Shown: positions 35,879 through 49,018 of the stretch, one piece after another
Layout of the letters: each line of letters begins with the position of its first letter
How positions within the stretch are numbered: the stretch's first letter is position 1
DNA from: Gammaproteobacteria bacterium
GTDB lineage: Bacteria > Pseudomonadota > Gammaproteobacteria > GCA-001735895
Reading direction: 5' to 3'
Assembly (NCBI GenBank): GCA_050298595.1
Contig: JBNKUM010000085.1
Location: 128,001-192,000 of the forward strand
Length of the DNA stretch: 64,000 nucleotides
Made by a program: the position numbers and the translations under genes
Notes under the pieces: model-generated
The model's input: only the letters and a program-made list of their open reading frames with translations
What the model was told of the DNA's origin: nothing
Databases searched by the model: none

Positions 35879-36592
35879 ATGGAATGGTATACTGAAATTG
35901 ATCTTTATTGTGAACGAATTGATCCAGGTTTTTGGGCAGAGCCTTTAAATGCTATTACAAATATTGCTTTCATAGTTGCATCTTTTTGGGCCTGGCATAC
36001 GGCATATAAGCTCGGAAAGTTAGATATCACAATAAAATTACTTTGTATTATGGCTGCAAGTATTGGCATTGGTTCGTTTCTATTTCATACCTATGCAAAC
36101 TTATGGTCTTATTTTGCTGATGTGATTCCTATTTGGAGTTTTGTCGCCTTATATGTGGTGGTCTTAATAATTAGAACATCCGCTAAATCACCATTACGAG
36201 TCGATGGAATTGCAGCTGGTATTATAGCTATTATTGGCGTTGTATGGATTATAGGATCAGGCAGTGCCACCCAAACTAAAGCATCCCCTGATGTGCTAAA
36301 TGGATCTGAACAGTATGCTCCAGCCTTAATTGCTTTATATTTCTTTGCATTCATGAGTGTTCGTAAGAAAAATCCAATTAGACTATGGATTGTAAGTGCA
36401 GCAATGATTTTTACATTATCGTTAATTGCGCGCACAGTAGATTTACATTTATGCGAAACATTTCCTCACGGCACACACTTTTATTGGCATCTATTAGATG
36501 GGTTAATGGTTGGGCTTTTATTACAGGGGCTTATTCGAATTGAAAGGAAAGAAACGAACCTCAAATATGATCGTGTAACAGGAGGGCTCTAA
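35879..36592 (+). CDS. Cassette A3: ceramidase-domain (CREST-like) membrane hydrolase
   Basis: YCER..FWAEPLNAITN, GSFLFH, HFYWH; multiple TM helices; AT-rich. Confidence 0.82.
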   Translation: MEWYTEIDLYCERIDPGFWAEPLNAITNIAFIVASFWAWHTAYKLGKLDITIKLLCIMAASIGIGSFLFHTYANLWSYFADVIPIWSFVALYVVVLIIRTSAKSPLRVDGIAAGIIAIIGVVWIIGSGSATQTKASPDVLNGSEQYAPALIALYFFAFMSVRKKNPIRLWIVSAAMIFTLSLIARTVDLHLCETFPHGTHFYWHLLDGLMVGLLLQGLIRIERKETNLKYDRVTGGL

Positions 36593-36634
36593 TGGTCTGT
36601 CCCCACAACACCCTGAATACGGGTCCACACACGA
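36570..36634 (-). mobile_element. Degenerate group IIC-attC intron 3' end (domains V-VI)
   Basis: Minus strand CGTGTGTGGACCCGTATTCAGGGTGTTGTGGGG...CCTCCTGTTACACGAT, similar to 38716-38783. Confidence 0.6.
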
Positions 36635-36639
36635 CTGAG

Positions 36640-36870
36640 GGGATTCAGGAAGTAGAGCGAAGCAAGATGCCTGAGCCGAGGAAGCCAGAACCGAGGGTGT
36701 TTCCCAAAGATGTTAAAGCAAGCTAAAGAAAATCAAACACAGAATATTCTAATATTAGAGTAATTTGTGACCCCGGATTGGCGCTTGCCATCCCTGACAA
36801 TAAGGGCGATAAAAAACCTCACTCTTCAGTGCTGATTTTTGATTAAACTTTTTTGATGCCCGAACTTGCC
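36640..36870. repeat. Two fragments of the composite repeat family
   Basis: ~36650-36697 is the reverse complement of ~34226-34272; ~36786-36869 matches ~34342-34423. Confidence 0.75.
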
Positions 36871-36970
36871 ATTCCTGACATCCTACGTATGTCTTTTTAA
36901 TGCACGTTAAGAGCTCTCAATATAATTCAGCTGATACCGCACACCTCCCATCAATGTGAAAACTTTTGTC

Positions 36971-37070
36971 GTAGGTCGGATAAGCAAAGCGCCATCCGAC
37001 ATAAACGATACAAGCACATTACCAAACTAAAAGTACGTCAATGTTGGAAGGCGTCGTTCCTCCTTTTCCA
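36971..37070 (+). repeat. GTAG-type REP doublet, second unit interrupted by IS
   Basis: GTAGGTCGGATAAGC...ATCCGAC; second unit TGTTGGAAGG...TTTTC continues as CAACCTAC at 38489-38496. Confidence 0.8.
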
Positions 37071-37147
37071 ATGACATGGACTCCTCCCCACTAAAGCGGT
37101 GATCCGTTAAAGTGAGAGGTCAACGAAACCAAAACAGGAGCCATGCC

Positions 37148-38177
37148 ATGAAAAATGATACAACAATTTGCATCGATTTATCGAAAGAGGTTTTTCAAGT
37201 AGCCGTATTCAACCGAGGAGGTAAAACCCTCATCAATAAAGCGATGTCATGCAAAAAAATGGTGAAAACCATCCACGAATACCCTGGCGCAAAAATCTAC
37301 ATGGAAGCATGCGGTTCAGCGCATTATTGGGGTCGATATTTTGTCGGGAAGGGATTTGAGGTAGGCCTGATCCCTCCTCATATTGCAGCCAGGTACCGTA
37401 CAGGAAATAAGAGTGACAAAAATGATGTGTTAGCGATCTTCGAAGCGAGTAAAAACCCAAAAATCCACTGTGTCCCCATCAGGACTGTGGAGCAGCAGGA
37501 TATTGCCTTGCTGCATAAACAGCGAGAAGGCTTCAAAAAGGAGCGTAATCAGGTGGTTAACCGGATCAGAAGTTTTTGCTCGGGAGTACGGTGTTCATTT
37601 CGCCATTGGAATCAAGCCTCTTTTAAGGCAGGTTCCTGAGGCTTTAGAGGATGCGGAAAACGAGCTCAGTGTGATGGCTCGGGAAATACTCTCAGAACTG
37701 CTCGTTCATCTCAGAGAGCTCATCTAACGGCTTGACAGTATGAGCCACACAATAGAGACCTATGCAAGAACGATAGAACCTTGCCGGCGATTGGTTATGC
37801 TGCCAGGTATATCCTGGCTGATCGCTAGTATGCTATATGCAAAATTTGGCGATTGTCATGCCTTTCAACGAGGGCGAGACACCAGCGCGAGTATAGGAAT
37901 CGTACACGCCCATTCAGAAAGCGGGGGGAAGATCAAGATCGGCAGCATCACAAAGCGAGGGGACATTTACCTTCGAAGTCTTGTGGTGAATGGCGCTCGA
38001 TCCGTGGTGAGTCATATCCAGGAGAAAGCCGATGGCTTAAGCTGCTGGATCAGGAAGTTGCTTGCGACAAAGAAATTTAACCAGGTCGTCATCGCGGTGG
38101 CCAACAAAGTGATCAGGATGGCTTGTGCCATGCTGAAAAGTGGCGATGAATACCGCCAGCCTGTCACCCAGGCATAA
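37148..38177 (+). pseudogene. IS110-family recombinase with frameshift (~37578) and internal stop (37725-27)
   Basis: IDLSKEVFQ, MEACGSAHYW, KSDKND (DEDD), SESGGK, ITKRGDIYLR, AVANK across split ORFs. Confidence 0.9.
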
Positions 38178-38219
38178 CGGTATTCTTTAGCCTGTGTTTA
38201 ACGATAACAGTACCTATCA

Positions 38220-38400
38220 TGTAGTTAGCTAATGAAGTAACGGATCATTATAGCTGGTAGCAGACCAGGCAAACCCTGAGTAGGTTGAAGGCCCTTTGAG
38301 GCCTCTTTTCCAATAAGGAGTTTGGTCTTCACGGCAAATAGCCGTACAGGTCTGGAGTAGCTCTCCATAACAAAGACCGAATATACGACAGCTAACACAG
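38220..38400 (+). ncRNA. Putative bridge/seek RNA of the IS1111 element; boundaries approximate
   Basis: GTAGGTTG (38280-87) and CTTTTCCAA (38305-13) match both halves of empty target CTTTTCCAACCTAC and flank an AGGCC/GGCCT hairpin. Confidence 0.75.
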
Positions 38401-38534
38401 CTTATAAGAGCGTTGCAACACAATGCCAACGAAGTGGAGTACTTGTAAGTTTTCTCAATAGTATTGCAAAACAGGAGGAGTCCATATACAACCTACGATT
38501 CCGGGTTACGGGTTTACAGGTTATAGAAGGCAGC

Positions 38535-38783
38535 TGACTGGTGGAAACAGAAGTCCTACCACCAACGCCGGTTTGAACAATGCACATTTCGAAAAGACAA
38601 GTCTCATATCCATGCGAAAGCTATGGTGCAAGATTCACCATCCGGCTACGGCCCGATAGACACTTGATATGAATTCGATTTACCCGATGAAGTATCTCAG
38701 TTAATAACTGGTCAGGCACCGTATACGGACCCGTATCTACGGTGTTGTGGCAAGGGGCTACTTGAGTAGCTCCCTATCCCGAT
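38535..38783 (+). mobile_element. 3' remnant of group IIC-attC intron (IEP C-terminus plus domains V-VI)
   Basis: NAGLNNAHFEKTSLISMRKLWCKIHHPATAR* (38564-38659); CCGTATACGGACCCGTATCTACGGTGTTGTGG...CTATCCCGAT|TAGC, antisense to cassette just after its stop. Confidence 0.8.
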
Positions 38784-38789
38784 TAGCTT

Positions 38790-39122
38790 TTATCCTTTTA
38801 CGCCAAGCTCAAGAATATGACAAAAGATTTTTCCATTTCCATAGAAATCCTTTGGCTCTACCTTAAGATATACATCTTTTCCAGCTGCGTAAGCGCTCAA
38901 TAGTGTTGATATTTTCCCCTTTTCTCCTGAATCTTTTTCATCAACATATGCCCATGCGGGACCATCAGGGCAGTAACTCATGGATGCCATACCATATACT
39001 CTAAAGTAAAGGTTGTTACCACTAGATACAAACACTTGATTGATCTTAAACCAGCCTGTTGACTCAGCTGCATATGAAATACTAGATAATAATATCATTA
39101 CCGTTACTAATAAAACTCTCAT
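38790..39122 (-). CDS. Cassette B2: small secreted two-Cys protein
   Basis: Signal peptide, RBS AGGAG, starts after attC GTTAGTT. Confidence 0.8.
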   Translation of the reverse strand: MRVLLVTVMILLSSISYAAESTGWFKINQVFVSSGNNLYFRVYGMASMSYCPDGPAWAYVDEKDSGEKGKISTLLSAYAAGKDVYLKVEPKDFYGNGKIFCHILELGVKG

Positions 39123-46115: not shown

Positions 46116-49018
46116 ACAGCCACCAGCACACGCACTGCATCCAGGCGCAGGTTGGCCTGGGCGATTTGCTGTTCTACCTGTGCCAGTTGCTGGCGGAAAA
46201 AATCCACCTCTTCATCACGCACATTGGGGTTGATAGTTTGCAGAGCAAGCAGTCGCTCAATTTCTTTATTCAGGGCCTGTTGTGCAGATTGCTGTGCCTG
46301 ATCGAGCTTTTGAGGCATAGCTTCGGTAGCCTTCATTTCGGCCTTGCTTAACAGCTTTTTGATCACATCTTCACGCGATTTAATCACCTTGATGGCTGTA
46401 TCTATATCCACATATTGCGAAGTTTGAGCAATCACATCAGGGGTCAGTTTCCGCTGATGTAGCTGATCATATTCATCGATGCATAGTCGCATCAGATTAT
46501 CTGGCAGATAGCGCTGAGCCTGCGCACCTTTGATATCGGCCACTTCGAGTCGGAAGAAGCAGTCCAGTATCAAAGTACCCGGTTTGGCTGCTGGATACTT
46601 CACGGCCAGTAAAGCGGTATTACCCAGTTCACTGCTTAGCACCATATCCATCAGGGTACGCACAAACGGGTGCTCCCAGGTGAGAAAGCGTACATCTTCA
46701 TTTGCCAGTGCCACCTGGCGAACATAGGTTACCGTCATACCATCCTCTGGTAGCCCAGGCACCTTGGCTAGCATCGTATTAGTGGGCTTAAGCACCCAGC
46801 AACCGGGGCCCTGGATTTCATAGCTAATGCCATAGCAATCATATAGCGACTCGATGTAGCGTGGTAAATCGAGCTTTAGATGGAGAGTCTCTGCCTTATC
46901 ACGCAGCTGTTCAGCTTTTGCCGGGCGACAGGAATTGTATTCCAGCAATCGATCACGTCCCTGTTGCACCTGCTGATTCAAGGTGTCGTGTAGCTGTGCA
47001 CTGCGCTGATAGAAGTCAGCATGATCCTGATCTCCCTGAGACAGGCATTGCAATAGCTCATGATGCATTTGCATGTATACGTTATGCCCTGCTGGGCAGG
47101 TTTGTTCGAAGGCGTTCAGACCCTGATGTAACCAGTTCATCATCACCTGTTGCGCAGTATTCGCCAGATAAGGCACATGAATCTGGATGGTACTCACCTG
47201 CCCGATACGATCCAGACGCCCGATACGTTGTTCCAGCAGATCCGGGTTTGCTGGTAAATCAAACATCACCATTTGATGCGCAAACTGAAAATTGCGCCCT
47301 TCGGAACCAATTTCAGAGCATATCAAGGCAGGGGCTCCGCTTTCTCTATCAGCAAACCAGGCCGCAGCTCGATCTCGTTCGATCAGGCTTAAGCCTTCGT
47401 GAAAAGCAGCCAAAGCAATTCCAGTTCGATCTTTTACTGCCTGCACCAGGCTTAATACAGTTTCTGCACTGGAGCAAATAACCAGCACTTTAAGTGAGCG
47501 ATTATCCTGTAAAAACTGACATAACCAGTCAACACGCGGATCGATACTGACCCACTTTTCGGGACTCTGACTGAGCGCACGTAACACCATCTCAGGCGAC
47601 AGTAGCCATTGGCTATTATTGGCTGCACCATCGTTCTCTACCAGCCCTTGATACAGCTCCTGATAAACCTGTGGGCAATCCAGTGCATAAGGATTTAATT
47701 CACGTCCGGGGAAACCCTGCACCACATGCCGGGTATTGCGGAATAACACGCGTCCGGTGCCGTGACGATCCAGCAAATGCTCTACCAATTGATTGCGAGC
47801 TGATTGCGCCAGCTCATCATCTCCATACTGCATGTCCTCAATTAGCAGCTGGTTATCTCCTTCTCCTACAGTTGCCTGCAATTCAGTCATCTGATCAGGG
47901 TTTAATTCGTTATTCTCCACCAGAGCCTGAACAATATCGGCAATCGGTTTGAAATTGATTTCGTCGGCAATGAAATGCTCCAGATCGACAAAGCGATCAG
48001 GGTCCAGCAAACGTAAACGTGCGAAATGACTTTCCTTACCCAACTGCTCAGGGGTGGCAGTTAATAACAGCACAGAAGGTATTTTTTTAGCCAGTTGTTC
48101 TACCAGTTGATATTCGATGCTGGGTTGTGCAGCTTCCCACACCAGATGATGCGCTTCATCCACCACCAGCATATCCCAGTCACCCTCGAGTGACTGACCG
48201 AATCGGTGGGGGTTGTTAACCAGAAATTCAAGACTGCATAACACCAGTTGTTCGCTATGGAATGGATTTTCCAGCGCATCTTCAGCATGTTCCTCATCTG
48301 TGCCATCCAGTGCTGAACAACGTTCTTCGTCGAATACGCTAAACAGCAGGTTAAAACGACGCATCATCTCCACCAGCCACTGGTGTAGCAGGCTTTCAGG
48401 CACCACGATCAACACACGGTTTGCGCGCTCGTTGAGTAATTGCTGGTGCATGATCAGACCAGCTTCGATGGTTTTGCCCAGACCTACTTCGTCTGCCAGT
48501 AGCACGCGTGGCGCAAAGCGACTGGCGACTTCATGTGCAATATACATTTGGTGATCTATCAGGCTGGTGCGGCAACCGGTCAATCCCTGCATGCTTGACT
48601 GGGTTAATAGACTGGCAATTTTTTGCGTACGCGCACGGACCTCAAACCATTTGTTTTTATCAACCTGTCCGTTTAATAGTCTCTGTAATGGATGGTTTAG
48701 TTTGAGGAAATTGCTGAGTTTACCTTCACTGAGCCGGACCTGTTGACCCGACCTGTCGACGCAATGGTAATACATGATGTCTGACTTGCTTTCGACTTCC
48801 TCAACCTTGAGTTCGCGGTTATCCTGATCAGTGATTTGATCACCGACTGCAAACAAAACACGCGACAAAGGCGCACTTTGCTTGGCATACATACGTGTTT
48901 CGCCAGTAGCCGGAAAGATGATACTCACCGTTCGAAATTCGACCTCCAGTACCAGCCCTATACCCAGATGTAACTCACCGGCGCTAACCCAGCGCTGTCC
49001 TACCGCAAACTGTTGCAT
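46112..49018 (-). CDS. rapA: RNA polymerase-associated protein RapA
   Basis: GQRWVS, LLADEVGLGKT, DEAHH, SEIGSEGRNFQ, QRIGRLDRIGQ. Confidence 0.96.
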   Translation of the reverse strand: MQQFAVGQRWVSAGELHLGIGLVLEVEFRTVSIIFPATGETRMYAKQSAPLSRVLFAVGDQITDQDNRELKVEEVESKSDIMYYHCVDRSGQQVRLSEGKLSNFLKLNHPLQRLLNGQVDKNKWFEVRARTQKIASLLTQSSMQGLTGCRTSLIDHQMYIAHEVASRFAPRVLLADEVGLGKTIEAGLIMHQQLLNERANRVLIVVPESLLHQWLVEMMRRFNLLFSVFDEERCSALDGTDEEHAEDALENPFHSEQLVLCSLEFLVNNPHRFGQSLEGDWDMLVVDEAHHLVWEAAQPSIEYQLVEQLAKKIPSVLLLTATPEQLGKESHFARLRLLDPDRFVDLEHFIADEINFKPIADIVQALVENNELNPDQMTELQATVGEGDNQLLIEDMQYGDDELAQSARNQLVEHLLDRHGTGRVLFRNTRHVVQGFPGRELNPYALDCPQVYQELYQGLVENDGAANNSQWLLSPEMVLRALSQSPEKWVSIDPRVDWLCQFLQDNRSLKVLVICSSAETVLSLVQAVKDRTGIALAAFHEGLSLIERDRAAAWFADRESGAPALICSEIGSEGRNFQFAHQMVMFDLPANPDLLEQRIGRLDRIGQVSTIQIHVPYLANTAQQVMMNWLHQGLNAFEQTCPAGHNVYMQMHHELLQCLSQGDQDHADFYQRSAQLHDTLNQQVQQGRDRLLEYNSCRPAKAEQLRDKAETLHLKLDLPRYIESLYDCYGISYEIQGPGCWVLKPTNTMLAKVPGLPEDGMTVTYVRQVALANEDVRFLTWEHPFVRTLMDMVLSSELGNTALLAVKYPAAKPGTLILDCFFRLEVADIKGAQAQRYLPDNLMRLCIDEYDQLHQRKLTPDVIAQTSQYVDIDTAIKVIKSREDVIKKLLSKAEMKATEAMPQKLDQAQQSAQQALNKEIERLLALQTINPNVRDEEVDFFRQQLAQVEQQIAQANLRLDAVRVLVAV

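What the first reader, a model, noticed from the sequence alone, without database searches (positions are those of the whole stretch)
37069..38496. REP-targeting IS1111 element with readable bridge/seek RNA guides
Seen: removing the element restores the REP arm CTTTTC-CA-ACCTAC. The right non-coding end holds GTAGGTTG (38280-87, reverse complement of CAACCTAC) and CTTTTCCAA (38305-13, left target half) around an AGGCC/GGCCT hairpin inside a GACCAGGC/GTTTGGTC stem. Weaker candidate donor guides TCATTATA (38245-52) and ATATAC (38381-86) match the circle junction ATATA-CA-ATGA and lie outside the target loop. Established: IS110/IS1111 recombinases are RNA-guided. Inference: a natural guide-target pair for a GTAG REP with the target loop nested in the donor loop; the recombinase here is broken.
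Basis: partly seen in the sequence, partly recalled or inferred. Interest (0 to 1): 0.7.

Follow-up and report, generated by a model that had tools for sequence, protein, structure and literature searches.

The report
Dead IS1111 element with readable guide RNA
A broken insertion sequence sits in a short genomic repeat and still carries the guide RNA gene that spells out that repeat, which is a clear but ordinary example of a mechanism described in 2024.

Summary
Window 37069-38488 (1420 bp) is an IS1111-family insertion sequence. It has 12-bp subterminal inverted repeats, terminal extensions of 7 nt on the left and 3 nt on the right, and no target duplication. It lies inside a GTAG-headed REP-like hairpin. 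The uninterrupted 14-mer CTTTTCCAACCTAC occurs elsewhere in this genome and in five relatives.

The 3' non-coding region matches a covariance model built only from 18 other family members (35.6 bits, E 1.4e-8). GUAGGUUG (38280-87) and CUUUUCCAA (38305-13) sit exactly where homologues carry guides matching their own, different flanks. The matched length was 13.4 nt for own flanks against 8.8 nt for foreign flanks, and 14 of 21 elements beat every foreign flank.

AUAUACGA(C) (38381-89) is the family-conserved right-end donor guide. GCCGU (38341-45) is the positional homologue of the left-end guide, but the evidence for it is weak.

The transposase gene carries an extra base, an in-frame stop and two substitutions in its conserved C-terminal motif. 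Copies 95-97% identical in three salt-marsh metagenome runs lack all four. No RNA data exist.

This is a new member of a known kind. One extra observation: four REP copies here carry right-end scars (CATATA) at the exact target position.

The parts
36971..37000 (+). Partner REP (GTAG head with stem GTCGGAT/ATCCGAC) of the BIME-like composite repeat that holds the target
   Evidence: Read. The composite unit recurs at 13 other places in the genome.
37043..37068 (+). Left half of the target REP hairpin (GTTGGAAGG...CCTTTTC). Its last 6 nt, CTTTTC, are the left target.
   Evidence: uninterrupted paralogue on contig C56; alignment of repeat copies.
37069..38488 (+). The insertion sequence, 1420 bp, IS1111 family. 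The boundary is ambiguous by up to 3 nt because CAA is shared.
   Evidence: Empty-site comparison; joints that skip 1420 nt; 7/3-nt extension rule read in PMC11187229.
37069..37075 (+). Left terminal extension CAATGAC (7 nt). Position 37074 is G in a near-identical metagenome copy.
   Evidence: (run X5, 37074 A>G).
37076..37087 (+). Left subterminal inverted repeat ATGGACTCCTCC
   Evidence: 12-nt perfect inverted repeat.
37148..38177 (+). Broken transposase gene. It has an extra base in the T run 37573-77, an in-frame TAA at 37725-27, and His and Glu at two positions of the conserved C-terminal motif (37905-07, 37917-19).
   Evidence: open reading frames; PF01548 E 2.2e-11, PF02371 E 6.5e-14; tblastn frame change at 37575-79; runs X5-X7 lack all four differences.
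38242..38398 (+). Core of the seekRNA / bridge RNA gene (long form)
   Evidence: Covariance model R1, built without this clade: 35.6 bits, E 1.4e-8, model positions 1-156. Conserved against the Algibacillus and Colwellia copies while the surroundings diverge.
38263..38327 (+). Target-binding stem-loop: outer stem 38263-70 / 38320-27, inner stem CCU 38275-77 / AGG 38316-18, apical hairpin 38289-304
   Evidence: 93.7% of cells paired against 71.4% when shuffled; 0 of 500 shuffles as high.
38280..38287 (+). T guide GUAGGUUG, complementary to the top strand of the right target CAACCTAC
38305..38314 (+). B guide CUUUUCCAA(U), same sense as the left target plus CA(A). The 10th nt matches the left end of the element (handshake-like).
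   Evidence: 10-nt exact match to the left junction.
38341..38345 (+). Candidate left-end donor guide GCCGU. The evidence is weak, and it also forms the 3' arm of a possible hairpin with ACGGC 38331-35.
   Evidence: Aligned with the family's xxCAU guide and with GCCAUU of the Pseudoalteromonas element. It pairs with ATGGT (relatives) and ATGGC (run X5 variant) but has one mismatch with the window's ATGAC.
38349..38378 (+). Conserved stem GGUC/GACC enclosing the hairpin UGGAG/CUCCA
   Evidence: helix 4: 97.6% paired, 2 pairs with compensatory change.
38381..38389 (+). Right-end donor guide AUAUACGAC, same sense as the element's last 5 nt plus CA plus AC (one G-T wobble)
   Evidence: motif in 25 of 28 elements; follows extension variants CTA, GTA, GTA, ACA in 4 of 4.
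38464..38469 (+). -35 hexamer TTGCAA of the junction promoter. The -10 hexamer TA|CAAT forms only when the ends are joined (38487-88 plus 37069-72), with a 17-nt spacer.
   Evidence: 9 of 12 consensus positions; the same arrangement in 18 of 19 elements.
38474..38485 (+). Right subterminal inverted repeat GGAGGAGTCCAT
38486..38488 (+). Right terminal extension ATA (3 nt)
38489..38496 (+). Right target CAACCTAC (the REP stem end plus the reverse complement of the GTAG head). This is not part of the element.

Best explanation
This is a decayed, single-copy IS1111-family insertion sequence that inserted, without duplicating its target, between CTTTTC and CAACCTAC on the 3' arm of a GTAG-headed REP-like hairpin.

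Its 296-nt region downstream of the transposase gene encodes a seekRNA / bridge RNA of the family's usual design. A covarying stem carries an internal loop. On the 5' side of that loop, GUAGGUUG pairs with the top strand of the right target half. On the 3' side, CUUUUCCAA pairs with the bottom strand of the left target half. The two overlap on CAA.

Downstream, in a multiloop, AUAUACGA(C) matches the element's own right end. A less certain GCCGU would pair with the left end.

In an active copy the sequence of events would be as follows (inferred from the family's literature, not shown here):
1. The element excises as a circle.
2. The joined ends create a promoter, TTGCAA, a 17-nt spacer, then TA|CAAT.
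3. That promoter transcribes the transposase gene and the non-coding region.
4. The RNA, bound to the DEDD/Ser recombinase, aligns the circle junction with a REP target.
5. Strands are exchanged at the CA.

This copy cannot do that. Its gene has an extra base, a stop codon and two substitutions in the conserved C-terminal motif.
For: Family identity. PF01548 and PF02371 match the gene pieces. The subterminal repeat is 12 bp and perfect. The 7-nt left and 3-nt right extensions and the absence of duplication are fixed by the empty paralogue and by 1420-nt joints. All of this agrees with the family rule read in PMC11187229.

RNA gene. A model built from 18 other elements, without this clade, finds 38242-38398 at 35.6 bits, E 1.4e-8, full length. 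On 21 sequences the stems are 93.7% paired against 71.4% when shuffled (0 of 500), the covariation score is 0.579 against 0.161, and slid controls give 29-53%. Ten of 14 predicted pairs have compensatory changes.

Target guides. With anchored matches, a spacing of 15-45 nt and Watson-Crick pairs only, own flanks match over a mean of 13.4 nt against 8.8 nt (sd 1.4) for foreign flanks. Fourteen of 21 elements beat all 20 foreign flank pairs, and the window scores 18. The order (top-strand match 5' of bottom-strand match, overlapping on the target) is the order reported for IS1111 seekRNAs. Within the clade, the Colwellia copy has left target AAACCCAA and guide AAAUCCGA (two wobbles), and right target CGACCTAC against GUAGGUUG (one wobble).

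Right-end guide. The motif CCGrAU+extension is found in 25 of 28 elements and follows the CTA, GTA, GTA and ACA variants.

Junction promoter. It is present in 18 of 19 elements. No promoter-like site lies on the + strand inside the element.

Decay. Single copy in the genome. The frame change lies at 37575-79. Runs X5, X6 and X7 (three studies) hold copies 95-97% identical that lack the extra base, read A at 37725, and have Pro and Gly codons at 37905-07 and 37917-19.
Against: No RNA evidence exists: no RNA run holds the region, so transcription and processing are inferred.

Thermodynamics alone is weak. The 71-nt fold has z -1.3. The 160-nt minimum-energy fold pairs GUUUGGUCUU with the downstream AAAGACC instead of the target stem.

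Seven of 21 elements did not beat all foreign flanks with Watson-Crick pairs only. These include both close relatives, COLW and L003, which need G-U pairs or a bulge.

The left-end guide is not secure. In the restricted window the own match is 5.08 nt against 3.98 nt for foreign left ends. The window's own left end has a mismatch with GCCGU, and that segment can also fold into a hairpin that shows no covariation.

Rfam has no matching family, so membership rests on my own model.
Confidence: 0.9

Rival explanations
1. The matches between the non-coding region and the flanks are not guides. They are a captured or rearranged REP fragment, or chance.
For: The target is a repeat, and GTAGGTTG...CTTTTCCAA superficially looks like a REP turned inside out. 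A whole-region, unanchored comparison separates own from foreign flanks only weakly: for the right-flank (T) guide 7.4 against 5.4 nt, and for the left-flank (B) guide 6.8 against 5.5 nt (Watson-Crick only).
Against: The two halves are split and are in the opposite order to the REP, so a capture would not produce them. Elements whose targets are not REPs show the same arrangement at the same model positions with their own flank sequences. The region matches a family model built without it.
Confidence: 0.03
2. The downstream RNA module is a selfish small-RNA passenger. Ssr9 of ISPpu9, which was not required for transposition, is the precedent. Under this reading the module hitch-hikes on the transposase and does not guide it.
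For: In a genome of the same genus (G001) only the last 337 bp survive, that is the non-coding region plus the right end, next to the same right target. This recalls the solo ssr9 modules (abstract of PMC12288879).
Against: Only one such remnant was found, and it has no left end or left target at its boundary. The guides follow the targets across the family, which a passenger would not need. In ISEc11 the region was shown to be essential, by the section heading of PMC11187229 and the passages read.
Confidence: 0.05
3. The gene is not dead. The extra base and the stop are bypassed by programmed frameshifting or readthrough, so the element is still mobile.
For: The extra base lies in a run of five T (37573-77), the kind of site where slippage can happen.
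Against: Near-identical natural copies have neither lesion, so the lesions are not a conserved feature. The window copy also carries two substitutions in the conserved C-terminal motif (motif as described). The element is single-copy, although one perfect target is free in the genome.
Confidence: 0.02

Closest known systems
ISEc11, ISKpn4 and ISPa11 (IS1111 family) with their seekRNAs (Siddiquee et al. 2024, PMC11187229; sections 6, 8, 9, 10, 13 and passages read)
   Same: DEDD plus PF02371 transposase. Subterminal repeats of 11-13 bp. Extensions of 7 and 3 nt. No duplication. Long non-coding region downstream of the gene. A top-strand match 5' of a bottom-strand match, overlapping on the target. 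Junction promoter. ISPa11 also targets a REP.
   Different: The transposase of the closest intact relative (L003) is under 50% identical to any plasmid-borne family member found (best 49%). The target is a different REP. This copy is broken. Nothing was tested at the bench.
IS621 bridge RNA (Durrant et al. 2024, PMC11208160; Hiraizumi et al. 2024, PMC11208158; passages read)
   Same: RNA-guided recombination with separate guides for target and donor, each reading both strands around a short core. It is REP-targeting in its host, by the title of its first description as cited. Extra 'handshake' bases match the partner DNA. Here the 10th nt of the B guide matches the left end, and the last 2 nt of the right-end guide match the right target.
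   Different: In IS621 the RNA is encoded at the left end and the guide order is reversed. Here the donor guides lie in a multiloop and not in a simple internal loop, which Durrant et al. note for many IS1111 members. The subterminal repeats are long here.
ISPpu9 and ISPpu10 of Pseudomonas putida (PMC12288879; abstract and outline read)
   Same: IS110-superfamily elements inserted in REPs. A small-RNA gene lies downstream of the transposase gene. Solo copies of the RNA module exist, compare the G001 remnant.
   Different: Ssr9 was reported as not required for transposition, and ISPpu9 circles make no hybrid promoter. Here the ends would form one.
Element in Algibacillus agarilyticus NZ_QMED01000033 (L003), and the split copy in a Colwellia MAG (L004 plus L037)
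   Same: These are the closest relatives found: 63% and 57% amino-acid identity over the N-terminal 141 residues. They have the same RNA architecture, the same T guide, and the same kind of GTAG-headed REP target.
   Different: The gene is intact in L003, a 342-codon reading frame including its stop. The left targets and B guides differ. The left extension is CAATGGT instead of CAATGAC.

Membership tests
IS1111 family (within the IS110 superfamily) | Transposase with an N-terminal DEDD/RuvC-like domain (PF01548) | tested here: met
   E 2.2e-11, 44.2 bits (cut-off 29) on the first gene piece.
IS1111 family (within the IS110 superfamily) | C-terminal domain PF02371 with the G..P....S/TG motif | tested here: inconclusive
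   The domain is present (E 6.5e-14). In this copy the motif reads GIVHAHSESG, so the Pro is replaced. Near-identical metagenome copies have the Pro codon. The motif is as described in PMC11187229.
IS1111 family (within the IS110 superfamily) | Subterminal inverted repeats of about 11-13 bp | tested here: met
   12 bp, perfect, at 37076-87 and 38474-85.
IS1111 family (within the IS110 superfamily) | Asymmetric terminal extensions of 7 bp (left) and 3 bp (right), with no target duplication | tested here: met
   Empty paralogue and 1420-nt joints. The rule was read.
IS1111 family (within the IS110 superfamily) | The longer non-coding region lies downstream of the transposase gene | tested here: met
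   296 nt downstream (38178-38473) against about 60 nt between the left repeat and the start codon.
IS1111 family (within the IS110 superfamily) | Circular intermediate whose joined ends form a promoter | not testable with these tools
   Sequence only: TTGCAA, 17 nt, TA|CAAT, 9 of 12 positions, conserved in 18 of 19 relatives.
seekRNA / bridge RNA of IS1111 type | [quoted passage not shown] | tested here: met
   38280-87 and 38305-13; the overlap is CAA. The criterion was read.
seekRNA / bridge RNA of IS1111 type | Guides change with the target in related elements | tested here: met
   own 13.4 nt against foreign 8.8 nt; 14 of 21 beat all foreign flanks. L006 and L007 differ in B guide and in left flank.
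seekRNA / bridge RNA of IS1111 type | Conserved secondary structure | tested here: met
seekRNA / bridge RNA of IS1111 type | Donor-binding nucleotides for both element ends | tested here: inconclusive
   The right-end guide is supported. The left-end guide is only a weak positional candidate.
seekRNA / bridge RNA of IS1111 type | The RNA is made and binds the transposase | not testable with these tools
   No RNA holder is listed. Rfam has no model that matches.
REP / BIME repeats | Short imperfect palindrome with a GTAG head, repeated in intergenic DNA | tested here: met
   On the lower strand the hairpin is GTAG+GTTGGAA...TTCCAAC. It is paired with a second GTAG REP at 36971-37000. There are 13 further copies of the unit, and 22 exact target 14-mers in 6 of 14 genomes of the genus.
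REP / BIME repeats | Association with a RAYT (Y1) transposase | tested here: inconclusive
   The genome has 26 PF01797 matches, but none was linked to this repeat and IS200/IS605 genes match the same family.

The most novel reading that the evidence does not exclude
Elements of this family do not always leave cleanly. Four REP copies of this genome carry the element's last six bases (CATATA) exactly between the left and right target halves. These are scars of mis-registered excision at the CA inside the right subterminal repeat (TC-CA on both sides). Such scars destroy the match to the B guide, so they would immunise the REP against re-insertion and would keep a countable record of past activity. 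A distant relative's genome (G173) shows the same kind of variants at its own target: 14 of the right-end type and 29 of a left-end type, beside 414 pristine sites.
Probability: 0.3. Interest if true: 0.55.

Novelty: new member of a known kind. Interest (0 to 1): 0.3.

Why it matters
It adds a clean natural guide-target pair, and a small clade with an intact relative in Algibacillus, to the catalogue of RNA-guided IS1111 recombinases. These are being developed as programmable DNA insertion tools.

The comparison set assembled here comes from one little-studied order plus marine relatives. It shows all the expected parts in register: two target guides, the right-end guide that follows the terminal extension, and the junction promoter.

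For the host, the element is a dead insertion in an intergenic repeat with no visible effect on neighbouring genes.

The possible excision scars would matter for judging the fidelity of these recombinases, if they are real.

Tried and rejected
Rfam search of 36500-39000 at E up to 1: only a chance lncRNA match outside the element.

Closer relatives were sought five ways. All gave little or nothing closer than 57-63%:
- whole-element DNA in 61 related genomes: 1 remnant;
- protein patterns in genome contigs: 2 loci;
- 401 genomes of the order of L003: best 44%;
- Metagenome contigs: 11 loci at 40-46%;
- plasmids: best 49%.

The unanchored whole-region guide test was too noisy to use and was replaced by the anchored test.

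Single-sequence folding is not decisive. The 319-nt fold has z -1.7. The 160-nt fold has z -2.9 but with an alternative pairing. The 71-nt fold has z -1.3.

RNA evidence: no RNA holder listed.

TCATTATA as a donor guide was rejected.

A CA-core explanation for the scars does not transfer to G173, where the crossover bases differ. The scar mechanism therefore stays open.

The scar motif in G012 is not in a REP and is probably chance.

The RAYT link was not resolved.

The weak model hit at window 47065-47148 (E 0.17) was not pursued.

PMC219399 is not held. Figures and supplements of the 2024 papers (Durrant Extended Data Fig. 10c and Supplementary Table 5; Siddiquee supplementary figures) could not be seen, and ISfinder cannot be searched. 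This element, or the exact donor-guide positions of IS1111 members, may already be listed there.

Counts and dropped rows. My script found subterminal repeats in 39 of 50 loci examined. For one search I kept 19 of these 39 plus the window and the Colwellia composite, 21 in all. I dropped repeated copies of one element type (L009, L026, L014, L028, L036, L040, L041, L045, L048-L053, L059) and loci with cut flanks (L005, L019, L023, L025, L042). L022 never entered, because its best protein match was too short.
Full report
WHAT IS THERE

The element has perfect 12-bp inverted repeats, ATGGACTCCTCC (37076-87) and GGAGGAGTCCAT (38474-85). Seven bases (CAATGAC) precede the left repeat and three (ATA) follow the right one.

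The same genome holds an uninterrupted paralogue of the surrounding repeat on contig C56. It reads ...cgtcgttcctcCTTTTCCAACCTACtattccgggttacggg.... The insertion is therefore 37069-38488, 1420 bp, with CAA shared between the left end and the right flank and no duplication. Contigs of run X2 join 37068 to 38489, skipping 1420 nt. Their sides are short, so they are REP paralogues and not a proven empty allele.

This geometry is the one given for the IS1111 family in PMC11187229: subterminal repeats of 11-13 bp, extensions of 7 and 3 bp, no added bases.

THE GENE

Three reading-frame pieces carry PF01548 (E 2.2e-11) and PF02371 (E 6.5e-14). Against the intact Algibacillus protein the frame changes at 37575-79, and an in-frame TAA stands at 37725-27.

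Contigs from three salt-marsh metagenome runs of three different studies (X5, X6, X7), 95-97% identical to the element, differ from the window at four informative places where they cover them:
- they lack one base at 37573/4;
- they read A at 37725;
- they have a Pro codon at 37905-07;
- they have a Gly codon at 37917-19.

In the window the last two positions give GIVHAHSESG in place of the conserved G..P....S/TG motif (motif read). Undamaged close relatives therefore exist in nature, and the window copy is decayed at four or more places. It is the only copy in its genome. A genome of the same genus keeps only the last 337 bp, at 97% identity, next to the same right target.

THE TARGET

On the lower strand the interrupted sequence reads GTAG+GTTGGAAAAGG...CCTTCCAAC. 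That is a GTAG-headed imperfect palindrome. It faces a second one (GTAGGTCGGATAAG...ATCCGAC, 36971-37000) in a composite unit that recurs at 13 other places in the genome.

The exact 14-mer target occurs at 22 sites in 6 of 14 genomes of the genus, and the reversed control pattern at none. The genome has 26 Y1-transposase matches, but I could not link any to this repeat.

The element lies between a ceramidase-family gene and a small gene of unknown family. No resistance gene is nearby.

THE RNA GENE

Rfam has nothing for it. I collected IS1111-type loci from four sources: the window's order, the order of the Algibacillus relative, metagenomes and a Pseudoalteromonas plasmid. My script found subterminal repeats in 39 of 50 loci examined.

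Their downstream regions share one plan:
1. a covarying stem;
2. the motif AAACCUG;
3. a segment complementary to the right flank, starting right after the 3-nt extension;
4. a small hairpin;
5. a segment identical to the left flank plus the first bases of the element;
6. the motif AUAAGG and the closing strand of the stem;
7. a segment complementary to ATGxx of the left end;
8. a GGCC stem-loop;
9. CCGrAU followed by the right extension and two to four more bases.

A covariance model built from 18 of these, leaving out the window and its two close relatives, finds the window at 38242-38398 with 35.6 bits and E 1.4e-8 over its full length. It finds the relatives at 51 and 60 bits.

On the 21-sequence alignment, 93.7% of cells pair against 71.4% after shuffling (0 of 500 as high). 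The covariation score is 0.579 against 0.161, and slid controls give 29-53%. Ten of 14 predicted pairs show compensatory change. In the Algibacillus and Colwellia copies it is replaced by ACUCAAUC/GGUUGAGU.

Folding the window sequence alone is not decisive.

TARGET GUIDES

I scored anchored matches, with the right-flank match ending at the junction and the left-flank match 15-45 nt downstream. With Watson-Crick pairs only, elements match their own flanks over 13.4 nt on average, against 8.8 nt (sd 1.4) for the flanks of other elements. Fourteen of 21 beat all 20 foreign pairs.

The window scores 18 (GTAGGTTG plus CTTTTCCAAT). Its best foreign score is 15. The call did not say which element gave it, though two relatives share its right flank.

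Seven elements did not beat all foreign pairs: COLW, L003, L013, L017, L038, L039 and L044. The first two recover when G-U pairs are allowed.

Within one element type, L006 and L007 differ in the left-flank guide (AGGAACA against CAAAGCAAT) and in the left flank (..aggaa|CA against ..caaag|CAAT). This is natural retargeting of the kind reported for ISEc11 and ISXne4. The order and overlap of the two matches are those reported for IS1111 seekRNAs.

DONOR GUIDES

The motif before the 3' closing strand is present in 25 of 28 elements. It reads AU plus the right extension. It follows that extension where it is CTA (L012), GTA (L019, L020) or ACA (L039). In the window it is AUAUACGAC (38381-89).
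- It matches ATATA+CA+AC of the integrated right junction with one G-T wobble.
- It matches one base less of the inferred circle junction.

Together with the tenth base of the left-flank guide, which matches the left end of the element, this resembles the handshake bases of IS621. That comparison is my inference.

- the relatives have unrelated letters at that place;
- the match is 5 nt;
- the family's left-end guide lies after the target stem.

At that position the window has ACGGCAAAUAGCCGUAC. The model and MAFFT align GCCGU (38341-45) with the xxCAU guides. The Pseudoalteromonas element, whose left end is CAATGGT, has GCCAUU there. GCCGU can pair with ATGGT (Algibacillus, Colwellia) and with ATGGC (the X5 variant, 37074 A>G). 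It has a mismatch with the window's ATGAC.

The own-versus-foreign contrast for this guide is small: 5.08 against 3.98 nt. The segment can also form a hairpin that shows no covariation. I rate this guide as unresolved.

The overall topology is a target stem-loop branching from a multiloop that carries the donor bases. Durrant et al. state this for many IS1111 members.

PROMOTER

Joining the ends gives TTGCAA (38464-69), a 17-nt spacer, then TA|CAAT. The same arrangement is the best -35/-10 pair in 18 of 19 elements. No promoter-like site lies on the + strand inside the element. This fits the published view that the junction promoter drives both the gene and the non-coding region.

No RNA run holds the region, so expression is untested.

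SIDE OBSERVATIONS

The 12-mer ATATACAACCTA occurs five times in the genome. One is the element's right junction. The other four are in REP copies on contigs C47, C70 and C94 (two in tandem), where CATATA stands exactly between the left and right target halves. I estimate about 0.65 occurrences by chance.

In the other 13 genomes of the genus the motif is absent, apart from one site in G012 that is not in a REP. These look like scars of the element, possibly from deletion at TCCA...TCCA.

A distant relative's genome (G173) has 414 pristine targets, 3 elements, 14 right-end-type variants and 29 left-end-type variants. REP variants can spread as repeats, so these counts are not counts of events, and the mechanism is open.

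The window's genome also has a second, apparently intact IS1111-type element split over contigs C108 and C53, with a remnant on C9. Its RNA genes score 106-112 bits.

VERDICT

One of the two proposed donor guides is right and one is not. The kind of system was described in 2024, and bridge RNAs were predicted in 93% of catalogued IS1111 elements. This is therefore a new, dead member of a known kind, with interest of about 0.3.

Noticed in passing
G000 contigs C47:52985-52997, C70:389-401, C94:149547-149573 (L066, L067, L069, L070): Four REP copies carry CATATA, the element's last six bases, exactly between the left and right target halves. On C94 the 14-mer CATATACAACCTA(C/A) is in tandem. These are possible excision or deletion scars. 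They are absent from REPs of the other 13 genomes of the genus.
   Followed up: partly
G000 C108:7-693 (L033), C53:1-760 (L082), C9:4662-4817 (L081): A second IS1111-type element, a relative of L005 with repeat ATGGACCCAC. It is split over two overlapping contig ends and appears intact, and a truncated copy lies on C9. Its RNA genes score 106-112 bits with model R1.
   Followed up: partly
L002 1500-1838 (G001, same genus): A remnant made only of the last ~20 nt of the transposase gene, the non-coding region and the right end. It is 97% identical and lies next to the same right target. It has no left end, and the right repeat is mutated (GTCTAT).
   Followed up: partly
G173 chromosome (L043/L045-type element; L090-L107): The predicted empty target TTAATGCAAT|TGGTAT occurs 414 times. 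Beside 3 elements there are 14 sites with CATATA and 29 sites with TAA inserted at the junction. TAA would result from a deletion between the TGGTAT of the left end and the TGGTAT of the right target.
   Followed up: partly
L006, L007, L009, L026: Four copies of one element type in different genomes differ in the left-flank guide, and their left flanks differ accordingly. L026 carries the L007-type guide at a poorer site.
   Followed up: partly
Family loci, right-end guide: The right-end guide often continues into the right flank and not into the left end (for example L013 over 11 nt, L010, L015, L016, L027, L038, L058). It therefore matches the integrated junction better than the circle junction.
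   Followed up: partly
L108 (Pseudoalteromonas donghaensis plasmid NZ_CP032091, 540 kb region): A relative with 49% identity is inserted in a tandem array of a ~14-nt unit (cacttcgtaactcg), and its guides match that unit.
   Followed up: no
window 47065-47148 (-): A weak hit of RNA model R1 (10.1 bits, E 0.17), probably noise.
   Followed up: no
G000, whole genome: There are 26 matches to the Y1 transposase family PF01797, many with internal stops. Which of them, if any, are REP-associated was not examined.
   Followed up: no
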